Below are positions 27,958-35,377 of a stretch of DNA of 47,180 nucleotides, piece after piece. The position numbers were made by a program, and so were the translations under genes. This stretch comes from Escherichia phage phiEB49. The first letter of the stretch is position 1, and every line of letters begins with the position of its first letter. The notes below the pieces were generated by a model. That model did not search any database and was not told the origin of the DNA. It was given only the letters and a program-made list of their open reading frames with translations. The stretch lies in the sequence record JF770475; one strand, 5' to 3'.

Positions 27958-28002
27958 ATTGTATCAAGCCAAGTCCATTTGGCTTTAACAAAAAGTGCTA
28001 TT
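27958..28002 (-). promoter_or_regulatory. dyad-motif promoter for HNH gene
   Basis: Core 27986-28000 (TAACA-N5-TGCTA) abutting tape measure stop; minus TACAAT 27958-27963. Confidence 0.45.
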
Positions 28003-30979
28003 AACTGTAACCGCGCAAGAACTGGTAAGCAGTCCCGCCTTGCTGGAAGGACTGAGTAATCTCTTCTGCGATGATAACCCTGATACCAGATTCTAACTGT
28101 TTAGCGTCATTACCGCCACCACCGCCAAGACCTGTCTGAACGGTAACATTCACACCACCAACGTTAACATTGCTTCCACCAACAAGTCCACCAGTCGCAT
28201 AACCAGGACCAGACCCAACGACACCGCCGTTTGCGTATCCGCGCATCAACTTGTACAGGTTGTCTACGCCAATCCTTGAAGTTGCCTCCTTCGTAAACAC
28301 GAATTCACCACGATGCACCGTACCAGCTGGTTCATACTTACCTCCGTTACCAGTGTAGCCACCAGATGCAAAGCCAAAAGATTTACCAAAGTTAGATATG
28401 GCTGTACCTGTTGAGCCGCCACTACCGCCAAAACTAGATATCGTTGACTCAATCGCCTTAATCAAAAGAAGCTGCGTTGCAATGCGTGCAATCTGCTTCA
28501 AAATCGATGCTGTAAACTCACGGAAATTAGCCTCACCAGTAGTTACCAGGTTTGTGATCTGGTCAGTCAATCCATTGAAAGCACTCATTGCCAGCTCAGA
28601 GCCAATCTGGTTGAAGTTAGACAATTCGTCAGCCGTCTCTGCAAATGCAGACTTAACTCCAGCCAACCAATCGCCACGCAAGGCATCTTCCTGATTGTAG
28701 AAATTCTGACGAGCCTGCAATAGTGCCTGGAAATCAGTGTCATCTACGGAGCCACCTTTAGAAACTTGCTGAGCCTTAAGCGCTTCTATCTCCTTCAGTC
28801 TGTCAGCTTCTCGATTTGCTAATCCAGCACCAAGGCTAACTGATGAGGCTTCAGCGTTAATCTGGCGTGTCTTCTTGATGTTATCATCAAGGAGTTTATT
28901 GGCCCTTTCCTGTAATACAATCTGGTCTCCGAGCTCAGCCTTCTCTCGAGCAAGCCCTAAGATTTTATCCTGTTGCAACAGTAAAGCCCTCTGTTGCTTT
29001 GTGATGGTTCCGTCTGCGAGCCTTTCATTAAGGATTGCAAACTTAGCTTCTTCTGCGAACAACTGCTTGCGCTCGTTGCTGACAACATCACTAATCTGGC
29101 GGTGTTCCTGAAGAACCTTAAGCTGAGCTTGCAGGGCTAAAACGCCAGACTCGTAGTTGATGGTAAGGTCTCGCTGGTCCTTAACACCCTCCTTCCTTTT
29201 CTTGTTTGCCTCCTCAATGTCCTTTAGCTCCTGCTCTCTAGCTTTCCTGCGCTTCTCGAACTCGGCATCAGACTCACCAGTTCTCTGCTGCTCTTCCTGG
29301 GTTGAGGTAACATAACCAAGCTCACCTTTACGAATCCTTGCGTCACGCTCAGCTACTGACTTAACTAACTCTTCGTTAGCTTTCTTTATCCCTTCGTTTT
29401 GCTTTTCGAACTGCTGAACTAGCTCGCTACCAACCCCGTCGGCACCAGGAATGTTCTGGAATGCTTTAATTGTTGAGATCAGGAAGTTATTAATCAGAAC
29501 ATCACCCTGACCAATCAATAGCTGAATCTGCTCAATAGTACCGGCAACAACATCTACGATGAGGTTTAGTGCGCCAAGCGTCCTGTTACCAATATCAGTC
29601 CAAACCCGAGAAACGAAGTTTTTGAAGCTATCCCAGGCCCTCTCGAGAGGCGTTAGTGACTCTGCAACTTTGTTTAGGCGATTCTCCATTACATCAGCAA
29701 ATAGCTTCGTAGCAGCCGTTACAGCCTGCGTCTGACCCTCTGTAATCCTAATCTGCTCGATGTACTTAAGCTGACCAGCAGTTAAGAAGTTAAACTGCTT
29801 ATCAAGCTCAGCCAGACCTTTGACCGGGTCATTTGCGATTTTATCGAAGTTCTTGACGATATCATCAGCTGAATCACCAGTAACAGTTGCCCAGCGCGCA
29901 GTTGCCTCGGTAATAATTGAAATCTGAGCTACCGTGCGGCTTCCACTTGCGACCAATCCATTAGCAATCTCCTGACCAAGGCCTTGAGTTGCTCCAGCAG
30001 CCTCAGCCGCATTTCTCGCCAGATTCTGAACTGCACCTGCTGATAAGTTTGCTGATTGCCCGGTCAGGGTAAGCGTCTGGTTTAACTGCGATGTGTTCTG
30101 ATAGGCCTGATAAGCTGATAGTCCCAAAGCGCCAAGAGCAACACCCAGGGCTCCAGCTGCGACAATGAACGGATTTAATGCAGCAAGAGCAAACCTGAAC
30201 GTGTTGGCAACACCACCAAAGCTATCCTTAATCTGACCACCCTGCTGAATTGCAATTAGCCAGATTGGAATGCCGCCAGCCAATGAAGTTCCAATATCTG
30301 TAATCTGCGCTGGCAACTGCCTAATGGCGTTCTTATATGCGCCAACAGATAGACCAGAACGCTGCAATGCCTGAGATTGCCTTGTTAATGCTGCTGCGGA
30401 TTGGTCGGCTGCCGCTCCGATTTGTGCAATAATTGGCGCAGCCTGGCTTGAGACTCCTAGTTCTGCCGCCCTTAGCTTTAACAGCTCCTCGCGCGTTAAT
30501 GTTGCTGCCTGAGCCTCAGCTTGCAAAGACTTGAGGAATCTTTCAGCCTGGTTTGCGGCTTGAGCCTTAGCTTTTGACGCCTCGATTGCAGCCCTGCCTT
30601 CCTCTGTTAATGCACGCTGCGAGTTACGAAGCCTATTAGTCTGAGTCTCAAGAGCCTCACTTAAACGGTAGAATTCAGCCTCAGGAACAACGCCAGCAGA
30701 GAATGATTTATCCAGTGCGTCAGCTGCTTCCTGTAGTTTGCGAAGTTTTCCTGCTGTTGGGTCGATTGCCGTTTGCAGTTGACGGAAAGCCTGACGCTGT
30801 TCAGACAAGTATCTTGCCGTGTCGCGGGCCTGATTCTTGGCAACCAACTCAGCGTTAACGAACTCACTAACACCAGCAGCCGCCTGTTCATTGGCGCGTT
30901 TAAATTCTTGCAGGGACTTTGTGCCCTGGTCAACCTGGCGAACGTCAACGCCAAGTGTGATACCTGCAAATTCTGCCAT
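28001..30979 (-). CDS. tail tape measure protein
   Basis: About 990 aa, Ala/Gln-rich coiled-coil, Gly-rich C-terminus; start set to ATG 30979 after GGAGG. Confidence 0.85.
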   Translation of the reverse strand: MAEFAGITLGVDVRQVDQGTKSLQEFKRANEQAAAGVSEFVNAELVAKNQARDTARYLSEQRQAFRQLQTAIDPTAGKLRKLQEAADALDKSFSAGVVPEAEFYRLSEALETQTNRLRNSQRALTEEGRAAIEASKAKAQAANQAERFLKSLQAEAQAATLTREELLKLRAAELGVSSQAAPIIAQIGAAADQSAAALTRQSQALQRSGLSVGAYKNAIRQLPAQITDIGTSLAGGIPIWLIAIQQGGQIKDSFGGVANTFRFALAALNPFIVAAGALGVALGALGLSAYQAYQNTSQLNQTLTLTGQSANLSAGAVQNLARNAAEAAGATQGLGQEIANGLVASGSRTVAQISIITEATARWATVTGDSADDIVKNFDKIANDPVKGLAELDKQFNFLTAGQLKYIEQIRITEGQTQAVTAATKLFADVMENRLNKVAESLTPLERAWDSFKNFVSRVWTDIGNRTLGALNLIVDVVAGTIEQIQLLIGQGDVLINNFLISTIKAFQNIPGADGVGSELVQQFEKQNEGIKKANEELVKSVAERDARIRKGELGYVTSTQEEQQRTGESDAEFEKRRKAREQELKDIEEANKKRKEGVKDQRDLTINYESGVLALQAQLKVLQEHRQISDVVSNERKQLFAEEAKFAILNERLADGTITKQQRALLLQQDKILGLAREKAELGDQIVLQERANKLLDDNIKKTRQINAEASSVSLGAGLANREADRLKEIEALKAQQVSKGGSVDDTDFQALLQARQNFYNQEDALRGDWLAGVKSAFAETADELSNFNQIGSELAMSAFNGLTDQITNLVTTGEANFREFTASILKQIARIATQLLLIKAIESTISSFGGSGGSTGTAISNFGKSFGFASGGYTGNGGKYEPAGTVHRGEFVFTKEATSRIGVDNLYKLMRGYANGGVVGSGPGYATGGLVGGSNVNVGGVNVTVQTGLGGGGGNDAKQLESGIRVIIAEEITQSFQQGGTAYQFLRGYS

Positions 30980-30989
30980 GTAACCTCCA

Positions 30990-31021
30990 TAAAAAAACCT
31001 CCACAAAGGGAGGTTATTTTT
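30990..31021 (-). terminator. hairpin with flanking T/A runs upstream of tape measure gene
   Basis: CCTCC-acaaag-GGAGG with A-run and T-run flanks. Confidence 0.45.
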
Positions 31022-31268
31022 GCCTTACTTGCATCATCTCAAGTGCTTTGCACTCCAGTACTCGCAAGTCATTTAAAGTCATCTCTTTGTCCTTGACATT
31101 ATACACATCAAAGAGGAAAGGGAGTACTGAATAATCTATTCCGGTAGCGCCGTTCATACCTACACGCCATTGAGTTGAAACTGCCTGATAAACAGTCCAT
31201 GCCAGCATCATGTCGTCATCGAAGAATAATTCCTCTGGCTCCTCATCTTCATAATCCGAACGCCGCAT
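31014..31268 (-). CDS. putative tail assembly chaperone extension (GT-like -1 frame segment)
   Basis: ORF in -1 frame relative to upstream chaperone, open through the G stop; no canonical slippery heptamer seen. Confidence 0.35.
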   Translation of the reverse strand: MRRSDYEDEEPEELFFDDDMMLAWTVYQAVSTQWRVGMNGATGIDYSVLPFLFDVYNVKDKEMTLNDLRVLECKALEMMQVRQK

Positions 31269-31330
31269 GCCAATAGCTTCAAGCTCGGCGTCCGTTGGCT
31301 CTCTTTGGTATTGTAGATATACTGCGCGCT

Positions 31331-31645
31331 TTAGACCTTTGCGCGCTGGCCCGCCAGAGCTTGCATATAAGCGTTAGTCAGTGCCAGGACGGATGCAGGG
31401 AAAAGAGACACCAGCTCCTCGATGTTCTCGTCATTAAATTCTTCCTCAAGGTTCCAGCCGCTGCAGATCTCTTTCACAAAATCAAAATCCTTAAGACCCT
31501 CAGTCTGAAAAACTTCCTGAATCTCTTTTGCCTTACGATGCTTTGCTGTAAAGATAACCTCAGCTTCATCACCGTTAATCATCTGGAATTTTACAGGTAA
31601 CTTGAAGTCAGGCAACGCGCCAAGTTTGAGTTTGAATTTTGCCAT
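31331..31645 (-). CDS. tail assembly chaperone (lambda G-like)
   Basis: Position between major tail and tape measure; acidic C-terminal half; start set to ATG 31645 after GAGAGGAG. Confidence 0.5.
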   Translation of the reverse strand: MAKFKLKLGALPDFKLPVKFQMINGDEAEVIFTAKHRKAKEIQEVFQTEGLKDFDFVKEICSGWNLEEEFNDENIEELVSLFPASVLALTNAYMQALAGQRAKV

Positions 31646-31681
31646 TTTTATTACTCCTCTCGTAAATTGAATCATGATTAT

Positions 31682-31710
31682 AAAATAAAAAAGCCCTCAT
31701 TGCGAGGGCC
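31682..31710 (-). terminator. intrinsic terminator after major tail gene
   Basis: Minus-strand GGCCCTC-gcaat-GAGGGC followed by TTTTTTATTTT. Confidence 0.6.
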
Positions 31711-31717
31711 TTGTAAC

Positions 31718-32311
31718 TTATGCTGCCAGGAAGCTGTAGCGTCCACGCACCGTAATCGCTACGGATACAGTTTCGATTTCATTAACGGAAACGTTTGGAG
31801 TTTCGTTAAAAGCAACGGTACCAGTCCACAAGCGAACTTCGCTAGCTTTCGGTACATATGCACGAATCGCAGTAACCTTGCCACTTTCATCCAGTTCACG
31901 AAGGATTGGGTAGATTGGGTTATTGTATTCATGAGCAAAAGTATAGGTCGTGTTTACTGCAGACTTGTAGGTAGGAATCTGCTGTTCACGGTCATCGCTC
32001 AAGCACTGATAGGTAACGAACTGCTGCTCACCACCATCAGTAGAAACATCCTGAATACAAGGCATTTCAAACCAGGTAAGAACCTTAGCGATAGTTGCCG
32101 TGCCGCCAGCCGGGAATTTCAGGGTTGAAGTGGTATCGATACCTTCGACGGTGATAGTCGTATCGGTGGTAGACACTACGCGAAGCTGCTTATCAGCCAG
32201 GTTAGACCAGGTTGCAGATTCAACAACAATGAAATCGCCGTCAGCGAAGGTTGAAGCGTCAGCGACAGTCATGACTGGTTGTGTCGCGTTAGTAATGGCT
32301 GAAACGGTCAC
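31718..32311 (-). CDS. major tail (tube) protein
   Basis: 197 aa, Thr/Val-rich, position before chaperones; GTG start, 5' extent uncertain. Confidence 0.55.
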   Translation of the reverse strand: MTVSAITNATQPVMTVADASTFADGDFIVVESATWSNLADKQLRVVSTTDTTITVEGIDTTSTLKFPAGGTATIAKVLTWFEMPCIQDVSTDGGEQQFVTYQCLSDDREQQIPTYKSAVNTTYTFAHEYNNPIYPILRELDESGKVTAIRAYVPKASEVRLWTGTVAFNETPNVSVNEIETVSVAITVRGRYSFLAA

Positions 32312-32389: not shown

Positions 32390-32872
32390 TTAATATTTAA
32401 TGTCTCTCATTGCATGATTGCGATGATAGCCTAATGAAACCTCTGCAACAATTCTTGCTTCGCACGCTGAGATAAAGGACTTGTAATGACCGAGGCTTAT
32501 AGCCTTACCATTGTCTGATATCATTGCGTGCCACAAATCGTCGCGCTGGTTGTAGTTTACACCATTGACGCCAGGCAGTCTACGACGCCTTTTACATAAA
32601 TTTCTTCTATTTCCAGATGCTGAAACGCATCGGAGGTTTTCTATACGATTATCATCCCTAATGCCGTTTATGTGATCAATTTGCATTCCATCAGGTATCG
32701 CCCCATTGTGCATCTCCCATATAATCCTATGCACATACATCTTACCTGTCATTGTGACGTACATTTGTAGGTATCCATTTGGTTTGTTGTATCCGAGTCG
32801 CTTACTACAACCATTCTTCGTGAGATATCCTTCGCTGTGATATTCGTAATTTGAATTTAGAAAATCTTTCAT
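32390..32872 (-). CDS. HNH homing endonuclease with AP2 domain
   Basis: HRIIWEMHNGAIPDGMQIDHINGIRDDNRIENLR motif. Confidence 0.75.
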   Translation of the reverse strand: MKDFLNSNYEYHSEGYLTKNGCSKRLGYNKPNGYLQMYVTMTGKMYVHRIIWEMHNGAIPDGMQIDHINGIRDDNRIENLRCVSASGNRRNLCKRRRRLPGVNGVNYNQRDDLWHAMISDNGKAISLGHYKSFISACEARIVAEVSLGYHRNHAMRDIKY

Positions 32873-34852: not shown

Positions 34853-35377
34853 CTAAACTCTAGCAAATTCCTTGCATAGCTCCCTCTGCTTTTCTTCGTA
34901 AGCTAAAGCCGCCATCTCTGCCGTTTCGAAGTACCCTAAGTTTATTTCCTTCCCATCATACCTTAACCTAGCCCTACATCTGCCAGTTTGTTTAAAGTAT
35001 GACACACCCTTAAACCCGCTTGAGTTATCTCTGTGTGCTTTTTTGTTTGCGCTGTTTTGCTTTCTGTTAGCAAGTCTTAGATTTGATATTGAATTATTTA
35101 TCCCATTCATATCAATATGATCAACCTCGAATCCATACGGTATATCCCCATTCGCCACTATCCATAATAATCTATGAGCTAAGTGTGACTTCCCATTTAT
35201 AGAAATCCTGATGTATTTAGGGCCTGACTTGCACTCAAGCAATGAACCAGCGACTTTTCCGGCATTCCTTCCATTCCATTGCGGACTTAAATCATCCCTA
35301 TACTTCCATTTGATTAATCCAGTCTTAAAATCAACATCAAGTATCTTGTTTATCTCTTCTTTTTTTGGGTATTTCAT
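34853..35377 (-). CDS. HNH homing endonuclease with AP2 domain
   Basis: HRLLWIVANGDIPYGFEVDHIDMNGINNSISNLR motif. Confidence 0.7.
   Translation of the reverse strand: MKYPKKEEINKILDVDFKTGLIKWKYRDDLSPQWNGRNAGKVAGSLLECKSGPKYIRISINGKSHLAHRLLWIVANGDIPYGFEVDHIDMNGINNSISNLRLANRKQNSANKKAHRDNSSGFKGVSYFKQTGRCRARLRYDGKEINLGYFETAEMAALAYEEKQRELCKEFARV

What the first reader, a model, noticed from the sequence alone, without database searches (positions are those of the whole stretch)
31014..31675. G/GT-like tail chaperone pair without an obvious slippery heptamer
The ORF 31014..31268 is open in the -1 frame well upstream of its first ATG and runs through the stop codon of the chaperone gene, as expected for a frameshift-extended GT product. 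No canonical X XXY YYZ site is visible near the end of the G frame. Either a non-canonical shift site is used or the downstream ORF is translated independently from its own ATG.
Basis: inference. Interest (0 to 1): 0.3.

Follow-up and report, generated by a model that had tools for sequence, protein, structure and literature searches.

The report
Tail chaperone frameshift with degenerate slip site
This T1-like phage almost certainly makes its long tail-assembly chaperone by a -1 ribosomal frameshift, as its relatives do, but its usual seven-base slippery site (A_AAA_AAC) has been replaced by a minimal four-base one (A_AAG), so most genome records list the two halves as separate genes.

Summary
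On the minus strand, G (ATG 31645, stop 31333-31331; Pfam Phage_TAC_4) lies between the major tail gene and the tape measure gene. It is overlapped by a -1 frame open from 31373 to 31014 (DUF1799). The 40-nt overlap has no in-frame X_XXY_YYZ heptamer.

The window is a Rogunavirus-like (Drexlerviridae) genome. Among 115 distinct homologous loci, 74 carry a canonical heptamer directly before the G stop (A_AAA_AAC in 62, G_GGA_AAC in 12). The window's clade has GCA_AAG_GTC_TAA at that position. Its sister Sd1 (99% identical G) still has GCA_AAA_AAC_TAA.

Codon-position patterns switch from the G frame to the -1 frame exactly at AAG-GTC-TAA. The 21 codons between the G stop and the T-frame ATG (31268) are under purifying selection. 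They contain no start codon, the ATG has no Shine-Dalgarno sequence, and that Met is Leu in most relatives.

Best explanation: -1 slippage of tRNA-Lys on the tetramer A_AAG (31340-31337), giving a 210-aa GT fusion. I found no convincing stimulatory structure. Klebsiella Weberviruses independently carry A_AAA_GTY_TAA.

The missing classical site in Rogue1 was already noted in 2012 (PMC3496638). This is an ordinary system with a modestly interesting variant shift site.

The parts
31718..32311 (-). Major tail (tube) protein gene, immediately upstream of the chaperone unit
   Evidence: Pfam Phage_tail_3 E 3e-70; PHROG 584
31690..31712 (-). Terminator-like hairpin between the tail tube gene and G
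   Evidence: Annotated as a terminator at the same place in AHP42 and Stevie
31331..31645 (-). G: tail assembly (tape measure) chaperone, 104 aa. ATG at 31645, Shine-Dalgarno AGAGGAG at 31660-31654, stop TAA at 31333-31331
   Evidence: Pfam Phage_TAC_4 E 4e-37 over residues 1-103. Anti-SD dG -8.6. 50 of 56 variable sites fall at G-frame third positions
31334..31373 (-). Overlap zone: the -1 (T) frame is already open while the G frame is still being read
   Evidence: Variation here is synonymous in the G frame (8 of 8) and non-synonymous in the T frame (0 of 8)
31337..31343 (-). Proposed shift site C_GCA_AAG. The tetramer A_AAG is 31340-31337 and sits at the position of the A_AAA_AAC heptamer of relatives. 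It is followed by GTC (31336-31334) and TAA
   Evidence: It lies inside a 22-nt stretch (CGCGCAAAGGTCTAAAGCGCGC) that is invariant in the clade
31014..31337 (-). T part of the GT fusion, read in the -1 frame from GGT (31337-31335) to stop TAA (31016-31014). Predicted GT = 103 + 107 = 210 aa
   Evidence: Pfam DUF1799 E 2e-14. PHROG 17368 positions 103-213 match T-frame residues 8-119. tblastn that includes the 35 codons before the ATG covers at least 80% of the query in 842 of 1088 phage records
31266..31268 (-). ATG previously taken as the start of a separate T gene; most likely an internal Met codon
   Evidence: No Shine-Dalgarno sequence. Leu at this position in most relatives. Purifying selection continues upstream of it
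30996..31015 (-). Terminator-like hairpin just after the T stop and before the tape measure gene
   Evidence: Annotated as a terminator in AHP42 and Stevie
28001..30979 (-). Tape measure protein gene (ATG 30979), the client of the chaperone
   Evidence: Pfam TMP_2 E 8e-58 and Tape_meas_lam_C E 1e-17. Start position matches the annotation of relatives

Best explanation
G and the downstream -1 ORF form one recoding unit of the lambda G/GT type.

Most ribosomes translate G (104 aa) and terminate at TAA 31333-31331. A minority slip back one nucleotide on the tetramer A_AAG in C_GCA_AAG (31343-31337). tRNA-Lys(UUU) detaches from AAG and re-pairs with the overlapping AAA. The tRNA-Ala on GCA in the P site does not need to re-pair. 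This is a single-tRNA, 'hexanucleotide NNA_AAG' type of -1 frameshift. Translation then continues GGT CTA AAG CGC GCA ... to TAA 31016-31014. The product is a 210-aa GT fusion with the junction ...AGQRAK-GLKRAVYLQYQ....

Shown here:
- The gene identities and their order.
- The -1 frame relationship.
- The frame under selection switches within AAG-GTC-TAA.
- This site is homologous to canonical heptamers in relatives.
- The ATG at 31268 is not a conserved or Shine-Dalgarno-equipped start.

Inferred:
- The slipping tRNA is tRNA-Lys on A_AAG.
- The frameshift efficiency is low, probably at or below the few per cent of lambda.
- GT works as in lambda: its G part binds the tape measure protein and its T part recruits the tail tube protein.
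For: - Context and family: tail tube gene, then G (Phage_TAC_4), then the -1 ORF (DUF1799), then the tape measure gene. G and the -1 frame match contiguous halves of the fused PHROG 17368.
- Homologous position: in 115 distinct loci, the bases directly before the G stop are A_AAA_AAC in 62, G_GGA_AAC in 12, A_AAG_GTC in 8 (the window's clade) and A_AAA_GTY in 33 (Webervirus). Sd1, the sister of the window's clade with 99% identical G, has GCA_AAA_AAC_TAA where the window has GCA_AAG_GTC_TAA. Both give fusions of equal length.
- Frame switch within the A_AAG_GTC clade (9 distinct sequences): upstream of the site, 4 of 4 overlap sites and 50 of 56 G-ORF sites are at G-frame third positions. Between the G stop and the ATG, 9 of 10 are at T-frame third positions (P=0.0004) and 0-1 of 10 in the other frames. 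Synonymous GCA->GCT and TAT->TAC changes occur 4 and 6 codons after the site in BECP10 and UDF157lw.
- The same switch is seen in 33 Webervirus sequences: 11 of 14 sites upstream at G-frame third positions, and 23 of 32 downstream at T-frame third positions.
- No alternative route to the T frame: no ATG/GTG/TTG in the T frame from 31373 to 31269; no Shine-Dalgarno sequence at ATG 31268; no promoter or terminator between G and T; no conserved antisense ORF.
- Precedent: the Z_ZZN tetramer A_AA.G is the most shift-prone tetramer in E. coli and is used by IS elements (PMC4066793). G_CGA_AAG in IS1222 and A_CGA_AAG in B. subtilis cdd are natural sites of the same form. E. coli tRNA-Lys can perform single-tRNA slippage, whereas tRNA-Asn (the AAC codon of the ancestral heptamer) needs tandem slippage (PMC5009743).
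- The frameshift is accepted and annotated (joined CDS) in the T1-like phage Stevie (PMC4319613).
Against: - No fusion protein has been observed for this phage or its close relatives. None of the seven close-relative records I inspected annotates a join.
- Tetramers without a stimulator were barely above background in E. coli reporters: about 0.15% against 0.11%. They reached 5.6% only with the IS3 pseudoknot (PMC4066793).
- I found no convincing stimulator. Fold z-scores were +1.27 and -0.84. The best proximal hairpin was worse than shuffled sequences, and the best pseudoknot-like combination was matched by 10 of 200 shuffles. The upstream Shine-Dalgarno-like CUGGCGGG scored -5.3 against a background of -3.6 +/- 2.1. 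Rfam gave no frameshift element.
- The 9-bp hairpin 43-80 nt downstream varies in one arm without compensating changes.
- The sequence data place the shift within three codons but cannot tell a slip on AAG from a slip on GTC.
Confidence: 0.7

Rival explanations
1. T is made as a separate 84-aa protein by ordinary initiation at ATG 31268, as most GenBank records of relatives annotate it, and no fusion is needed.
For: An ATG exists at the start of the Pfam DUF1799 match. Two separate CDSs are annotated in Rogue1, C119, Opt-79, Sf12, BECP10 and others.
Against: - The ATG has no Shine-Dalgarno sequence: dG -2.2, which is background level.
- The Met is Leu in most relatives. Tonn, Webervirus and HK639 have no T-frame ATG for 122-206 nt yet keep the whole T frame.
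- The 21 codons upstream of the ATG are under purifying selection in the T frame within this very clade.
- The ATG at +65 is also present in canonical-heptamer clades (L039-L047), so it predates the loss of the heptamer.
- In lambda the T domain acts only when tethered to G (established knowledge; Xu et al. 2013/2014, cited in PMC5009743).
Confidence: 0.07
2. The -1 shift occurs one codon later. Peptidyl-tRNA-Val on GUC slips to GGU while the ribosome waits at the UAA stop codon (G_GUC_UAA), giving the junction AKV-LKR.
For: The frame switch is located only to AAG-GTC-TAA. A slowly decoded stop codon in the A site is a known stimulator of P-site slippage (established knowledge, for example prfB). 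Both non-canonical clades independently carry GTY directly before the stop.
Against: Re-pairing of tRNA-Val on GGU has a mismatch at the middle position. In Webervirus (GUU/GUC to AGU) only the wobble position could pair (inference from anticodon sequences). No precedent turned up in the papers I read.
Confidence: 0.1
3. The clade has lost G-T frameshifting. The -1 frame upstream of the ATG is a recent relic, or the ribosome bypasses between the two GCA codons of the flanking AGCGCGCA repeats (a 17-nt hop).
For: The heptamer is gone and no stimulator was found. An 8-nt repeat, AGCGCGCA, flanks the site at 31347-31340 and 31330-31323 (direct reading).
Against: - The T frame between the G stop and the ATG is still under purifying selection across 9 distinct A_AAG_GTC sequences, including codons inside the would-be bypassed gap and at the landing codon (GCA->GCT).
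- The site is invariant in all 25 loci of this sequence type that I read, and the region has near matches in 29 phage-database records.
- Webervirus shows the same pattern with more data.
- The repeat is explained by Arg-Ala dipeptides in both frames.
Confidence: 0.04
4. The fusion is produced by transcriptional slippage (RNA polymerase stuttering), not by the ribosome.
For: The ancestral site contains an A6 run. One metagenomic relative (L102) has an extra A that fuses G and T in frame.
Against: The window has only AAA at the site. Productive transcriptional slippage needs long homopolymer runs (PMC5009743).
Confidence: 0.01

Closest known systems
Phage lambda G/GT tail assembly chaperone -1 frameshift (Levin 1993; Xu, Hendrix & Duda 2004, 2013, 2014)
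   Same: - Two overlapping ORFs between the tail tube gene and the tape measure gene.
- The downstream ORF is in the -1 frame and overlaps the end of G.
- The predicted products are a short G and a G-T fusion.
   Different: - Lambda uses the heptamer G_GGA_AAG. This window has no heptamer, only A_AAG.
- The proteins belong to different sequence families (Phage_TAC_4 and DUF1799).
T1-like (Drexlerviridae) tape measure chaperone frameshift at A_AAA_AAC_TAA, as annotated in Stevie and U136B
   Same: - Homologous G and T proteins (52-99% identity in G).
- The same gene order.
- The shift site is at the same alignment position next to the G stop.
- The fusion has the same length.
   Different: The heptamer A_AAA_AAC has become A_AAG_GTC by three substitutions. 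This removes tandem re-pairing, but it gives the A-site tRNA-Lys a cognate codon after the shift.
Tetramer / hexanucleotide -1 sites NNA_AAG: IS1222 G_CGA_AAG, B. subtilis cdd A_CGA_AAG, IS3/IS1 family tetramers (Licznar 2003; Sharma 2014)
   Same: The motif has the same form: a P-site codon ending in A that cannot re-pair, followed by AAG. GCA, like CGA, is read by a tRNA with broad wobble (my own knowledge: tRNA-Ala cmo5UGC).
   Different: Those sites rely on a pseudoknot, hairpin or upstream Shine-Dalgarno stimulator. None could be shown here. In the papers I could search, this motif was not reported for a tail chaperone.
Rogue1 genes 30/31 (Kropinski et al. 2012, PMC3496638)
   Same: The same locus in a ~90% identical phage. 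The authors already noted that gene 30 lacks GGGAAAG and may form a G-T type fusion with gp31.
   Different: They invoked an unspecified downstream pseudoknot, which my searches could not substantiate. They did not locate the shift site or compare it with the heptamer of relatives.

Membership tests
G/GT-type tail assembly chaperone recoding unit | Located between the major tail (tube) gene and the tape measure gene, on the same strand | tested here: met
   Phage_tail_3 at 31718-32311, then G, then T, then TMP_2/Tape_meas_lam_C at 28001-30979
G/GT-type tail assembly chaperone recoding unit | The upstream ORF belongs to a tail assembly chaperone family | tested here: met
   Pfam Phage_TAC_4 E 3.6e-37; PHROG 569 and 17368
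G/GT-type tail assembly chaperone recoding unit | The second ORF overlaps the end of the first in the -1 frame, is conserved as coding sequence from the overlap onward, and lacks its own conserved start | tested here: met
G/GT-type tail assembly chaperone recoding unit | Canonical slippery heptamer X_XXY_YYZ in the overlap | tested here: not met
   No in-frame heptamer in 31373-31334. Relatives have A_AAA_AAC or G_GGA_AAC at the homologous position
G/GT-type tail assembly chaperone recoding unit | A G-T fusion polypeptide is produced at a low fixed ratio to G | not testable with these tools
   Needs a reporter assay, mass spectrometry or ribosome profiling
Z_ZZN tetramer / NNA_AAG hexanucleotide -1 frameshift sites | [quoted passage not shown] | tested here: met
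   C_GCA_AAG at 31343-31337. Invariant in the clade
Z_ZZN tetramer / NNA_AAG hexanucleotide -1 frameshift sites | A stimulator: a downstream hairpin or pseudoknot 5-9 nt away, or an upstream Shine-Dalgarno-like element | tested here: inconclusive
   No structure better than shuffled sequences. A weak Shine-Dalgarno-like element 9 nt upstream is within background. No Rfam match. An unconventional stimulator cannot be excluded
Z_ZZN tetramer / NNA_AAG hexanucleotide -1 frameshift sites | The shift is demonstrated to occur on the tetramer | not testable with these tools
   Sequence comparison localises it only to AAG-GTC-TAA

The most novel reading that the evidence does not exclude
A_AAR_GUY_UAA (Lys codon, Val codon, stop) is a distinct -1 shift cassette that works close to a stop codon and without an RNA structure. 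It replaced the A_AAA_AAC heptamer at least twice independently: in the Rogunavirus-like clade and in Klebsiella Weberviruses. Its efficiency would be set by the context of the adjacent Val codon and stop codon rather than by a pseudoknot. This would be a new kind of stimulator context for single-tRNA-Lys slippage.
Probability: 0.15. Interest if true: 0.55.

Novelty: new variant of a known kind. Interest (0 to 1): 0.3.

Why it matters
**Annotation.** In every Rogunavirus-like and Webervirus record I inspected, T is annotated as a separate small gene, as fragments, or not at all. Among the phage-database hits to the T frame, 434 come from Klebsiella phages and 436 from Escherichia phages. Many phages of these groups are isolated as candidates for therapy or biocontrol. 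Frameshift predictors that look only for heptamers will miss this site.

**Biology.** The family offers a natural experiment. A low-efficiency tandem-slippage heptamer was replaced twice by a single-tRNA tetramer while the fusion protein kept its length. That can be used to ask how the G:GT ratio is tuned, and whether A_AAG can work in vivo without a recognisable stimulator.

The system itself is standard. It does not open a new question.

Tried and rejected
- **Downstream stimulator.** MFE folds of 31336-31240 and 31360-31290 were no better than shuffles (z +1.27 and -0.84). A custom hairpin and H-type pseudoknot search over 120 nt found nothing proximal. The best combination rests on a distal 9-bp hairpin and was matched by 10 of 200 shuffles. 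That hairpin varies in one arm without compensating changes. The 'downstream pseudoknot' claimed for Rogue1 (PMC3496638) could not be substantiated.
- **Upstream Shine-Dalgarno-like stimulator.** It is within background.
- **Rfam.** No frameshift element; only sub-threshold noise.
- **Alternative site G_GGC (31352-31349).** Rejected, because variation after it is still synonymous in the G frame.
- **In-frame T_TTC_CCT heptamer (31403-31397).** A shift there would run into the -1-frame stop at 31376-31374.
- **Antisense ORF 31267..31377 (+ strand)** as the source of the third-position pattern. Rejected: it is not open in most relatives, whereas the T frame is open in 114 of 114.
- **Evolutionary intermediates between A_AAA_AAC and A_AAG_GTC.** The IMG/VR scan returned only the six known contigs. 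The metagenome scan returned 14 unrelated chance matches with no G or T homology.
- **PDB sequence search with the GT fusion.** No hit.
- **Licznar et al. 2003**, which has the per-codon NNA_AAG efficiencies, is not held in the library.

Full report
**What is there**

The window is a complete ~47-kb phage genome (IMG/VR UViG_2700988963). Across the 901-bp region queried, it is 89-94% identical to Rogunavirinae phages of the Drexlerviridae (T1-like): Sd1, Rogue1, JK06, C119, AHP42 and others.

All relevant genes are on the minus strand, in this order:
- the major tail tube gene (32311-31718, Phage_tail_3);
- a terminator-like hairpin;
- G (ATG 31645 with a strong Shine-Dalgarno sequence; stop TAA 31333-31331; 104 aa; Pfam Phage_TAC_4, E 4e-37);
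- a -1 frame open from 31373 to the stop at 31016-31014 (DUF1799);
- a second terminator-like hairpin;
- the tape measure gene (30979-28001, TMP_2 plus Tape_meas_lam_C).

G and the -1 frame match the two contiguous halves of PHROG 17368, a 213-position profile onto which the two map end to end. G covers profile positions 1-107 and T-frame residues 8-119 cover positions 103-213.

**Checking the observation**

- The frame of ORF 31014..31268 is -1 relative to G.
- It is open for 35 codons upstream of its ATG and overlaps the last 40 nt of G.
- The overlap has no in-frame X_XXY_YYZ heptamer. It has only the tetramers G_GGC and A_AAG.
- One correction: G almost certainly starts at 31645, not 31675.

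An open stretch of 35 codons would occur by chance about one time in five (my arithmetic). The case therefore rests on comparison with other phages.

**Comparative evidence**

I collected 115 distinct homologous G-T loci from IMG/VR and GenBank phages.
- T is in the -1 frame in nearly all of the ~100 distinct loci first surveyed. The six exceptions carry apparent indels or an in-frame fusion.
- The bases directly before the G stop are A_AAA_AAC in 62 loci and G_GGA_AAC in 12. Both are textbook heptamers.
- The window's clade (8 loci) has GCA_AAG_GTC_TAA at the same alignment position.
- Klebsiella Weberviruses (33 loci) have GCA_AAA_GTY_TAA.

On a neighbour-joining tree of the fusion proteins, the window's clade is shallow. 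Its sister is Sd1, whose G is 99% identical and still reads GCA_AAA_AAC_TAA. Webervirus is a separate deep branch. The heptamer is therefore ancestral and was replaced at least twice.

**Where the reading frame changes**

I used 9 distinct sequences that share A_AAG_GTC.
- Upstream of the site, variable positions fall at G-frame third positions: 50 of 56 across G, and 4 of 4 in the overlap. In the overlap they are non-synonymous in the T frame.
- Between the G stop and the ATG, 9 of 10 variable positions are T-frame third positions (binomial P=0.0004). Only 0-1 of 10 are third positions in the other frames.
- Synonymous GCA->GCT and TAT->TAC changes lie only 4 and 6 codons after the site.
- A 22-nt stretch, CGCGCAAAGGTCTAAAGCGCGC, is invariant.

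Thirty-three Webervirus sequences show the same switch: 11 of 14 sites upstream and 23 of 32 downstream. The T frame is the only one of six frames open in all 114 loci tested over the 22 codons after the G stop, which rules out an antisense gene. tblastn with the T frame, including the 35 codons before the ATG, covers at least 80% of the query in 842 of 1088 phage records.

**Independent initiation is unlikely**

- The T frame has no ATG, GTG or TTG between 31373 and 31269.
- ATG 31268 has an anti-Shine-Dalgarno dG of -2.2. Random positions give -2.8 +/- 2.6, and the G start gives -8.6.
- The Met is Leu in most relatives. Tonn, Webervirus and HK639 have no T-frame ATG for 122-206 nt, and several records annotate no T gene at all.
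- The ATG at +65 also occurs in canonical-heptamer clades, so it is not a replacement for the frameshift.
- No promoter-like or terminator-like site lies between G and T.

**Mechanism**

The shift must occur within AAG-GTC-TAA. The most likely event is single-tRNA slippage of tRNA-Lys from AAG to the overlapping AAA in C_GCA_AAG (31343-31337). Decoding of GGT follows, giving a 210-aa fusion with the junction AK-GLKRAVY.

The literature supports this type of site:
- Z_ZZN tetramers are the minimal -1 motif. A_AA.G is by far the best tetramer in E. coli, and IS1/IS3 elements use tetramers (PMC4066793).
- G_CGA_AAG (IS1222) and A_CGA_AAG (B. subtilis cdd) are natural sites of the same form.
- E. 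coli tRNA-Lys can slip alone, whereas tRNA-Asn needs tandem slippage. P-site codons read by tRNAs with broad wobble favour the event (PMC5009743).
- A_AAA_AAC, the ancestral site, is itself a low-efficiency heptamer in E. coli. The bacterial rule favours cognate re-pairing in the A site (PMC4066793). The derived site satisfies that rule.

The weak point is the lack of a stimulator. Without one, tetramers were barely above background in reporters. I found no significant hairpin, pseudoknot, Shine-Dalgarno-like element or Rfam motif. The efficiency may simply be low, or an unconventional stimulator exists. A slip of tRNA-Val at G_GUC next to the stop cannot be excluded by sequence alone.

**Relation to what is known**

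- The G/GT frameshift is a classic. It is annotated as a joined CDS in the T1-like phage Stevie and was described for U136B (PMC4319613, PMC8104045).
- For Rogue1, Kropinski et al. (2012) already wrote that gene 30 lacks the classical GGGAAAG site and may still form a G-T fusion with gp31 (PMC3496638).
- New here: the site maps to A_AAG at the position of the ancestral heptamer; there is codon-level evidence that the fusion frame is maintained in this clade; the claimed pseudoknot could not be found; and Webervirus made a parallel change.
- None of the records I inspected from these two groups annotates the join.

**Verdict**

This is an ordinary tail chaperone recoding unit with a degenerate, tetramer-type shift site. 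I rate it a new variant of a known kind and of modest interest.

Noticed in passing
window 32390..32872 (-) and 34853..35377 (-): Two HNH_3 + AP2-like homing endonuclease ORFs sit inside the structural gene module. The first lies between the tail terminator gene and the major tail gene, where relatives Opt-79 and C119 have only a ~15-nt gap. It looks like a recent mobile insertion.
   Followed up: partly
window 31712..31690 (-) and 31015..30996 (-): Terminator-like hairpins bracket the G-T unit: one after the tail tube gene and one after T, just before the tape measure gene's ribosome binding site. The same positions are annotated as terminators in AHP42 and Stevie. This suggests stepwise attenuation of transcription through the tail genes.
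   Followed up: no
window 31347..31340 and 31330..31323 (-): An 8-nt repeat, AGCGCGCA, flanks the shift site. GCGCGC is palindromic, so a 6-8 bp hairpin with the slip site in an 11-nt loop is also predicted. BECP10 and UDF157lw carry GCA->GCT, which makes the stem a perfect 8 bp. The fold is not significant against shuffles, and a translating ribosome at the site would melt it. The repeat is probably a by-product of Arg-Ala codons in both frames.
   Followed up: partly
Webervirus loci L030, L104-L111, L114-L153 (e.g. L030:601-951): Klebsiella Weberviruses independently lack the heptamer (GCA_AAA_GTT/GTC_TAA) and have no T-frame ATG for 149 nt. Even so, they show the G-to-T switch in codon periodicity. 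The two GenBank records I inspected annotate the T region as two small fragments or hypothetical proteins.
   Followed up: partly
L102:401-1045: A metagenomic HK639-like contig encodes G and T as one uninterrupted 214-aa ORF (…GIREKKLRQVAAA…). It has one extra A in the A-run compared with HK639's GAA_AAA_AAC_TGA. This is either an assembly indel or a natural in-frame fusion.
   Followed up: no
L038:401-1027 (Citrobacter phage HCF1): Near the shift site this record appears to have two single-base deletions relative to its relatives, one of them shortening the A-run to A5. The N-terminal part of G ends up in the same frame as T, separated by a TAA. These are probably homopolymer sequencing errors.
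   Followed up: no
window 31403..31397 (-): An in-frame T_TTC_CCT heptamer lies inside G, 27 nt upstream of where the -1 frame opens. A shift there would terminate after about 8 codons. It is presumably irrelevant.
   Followed up: yes
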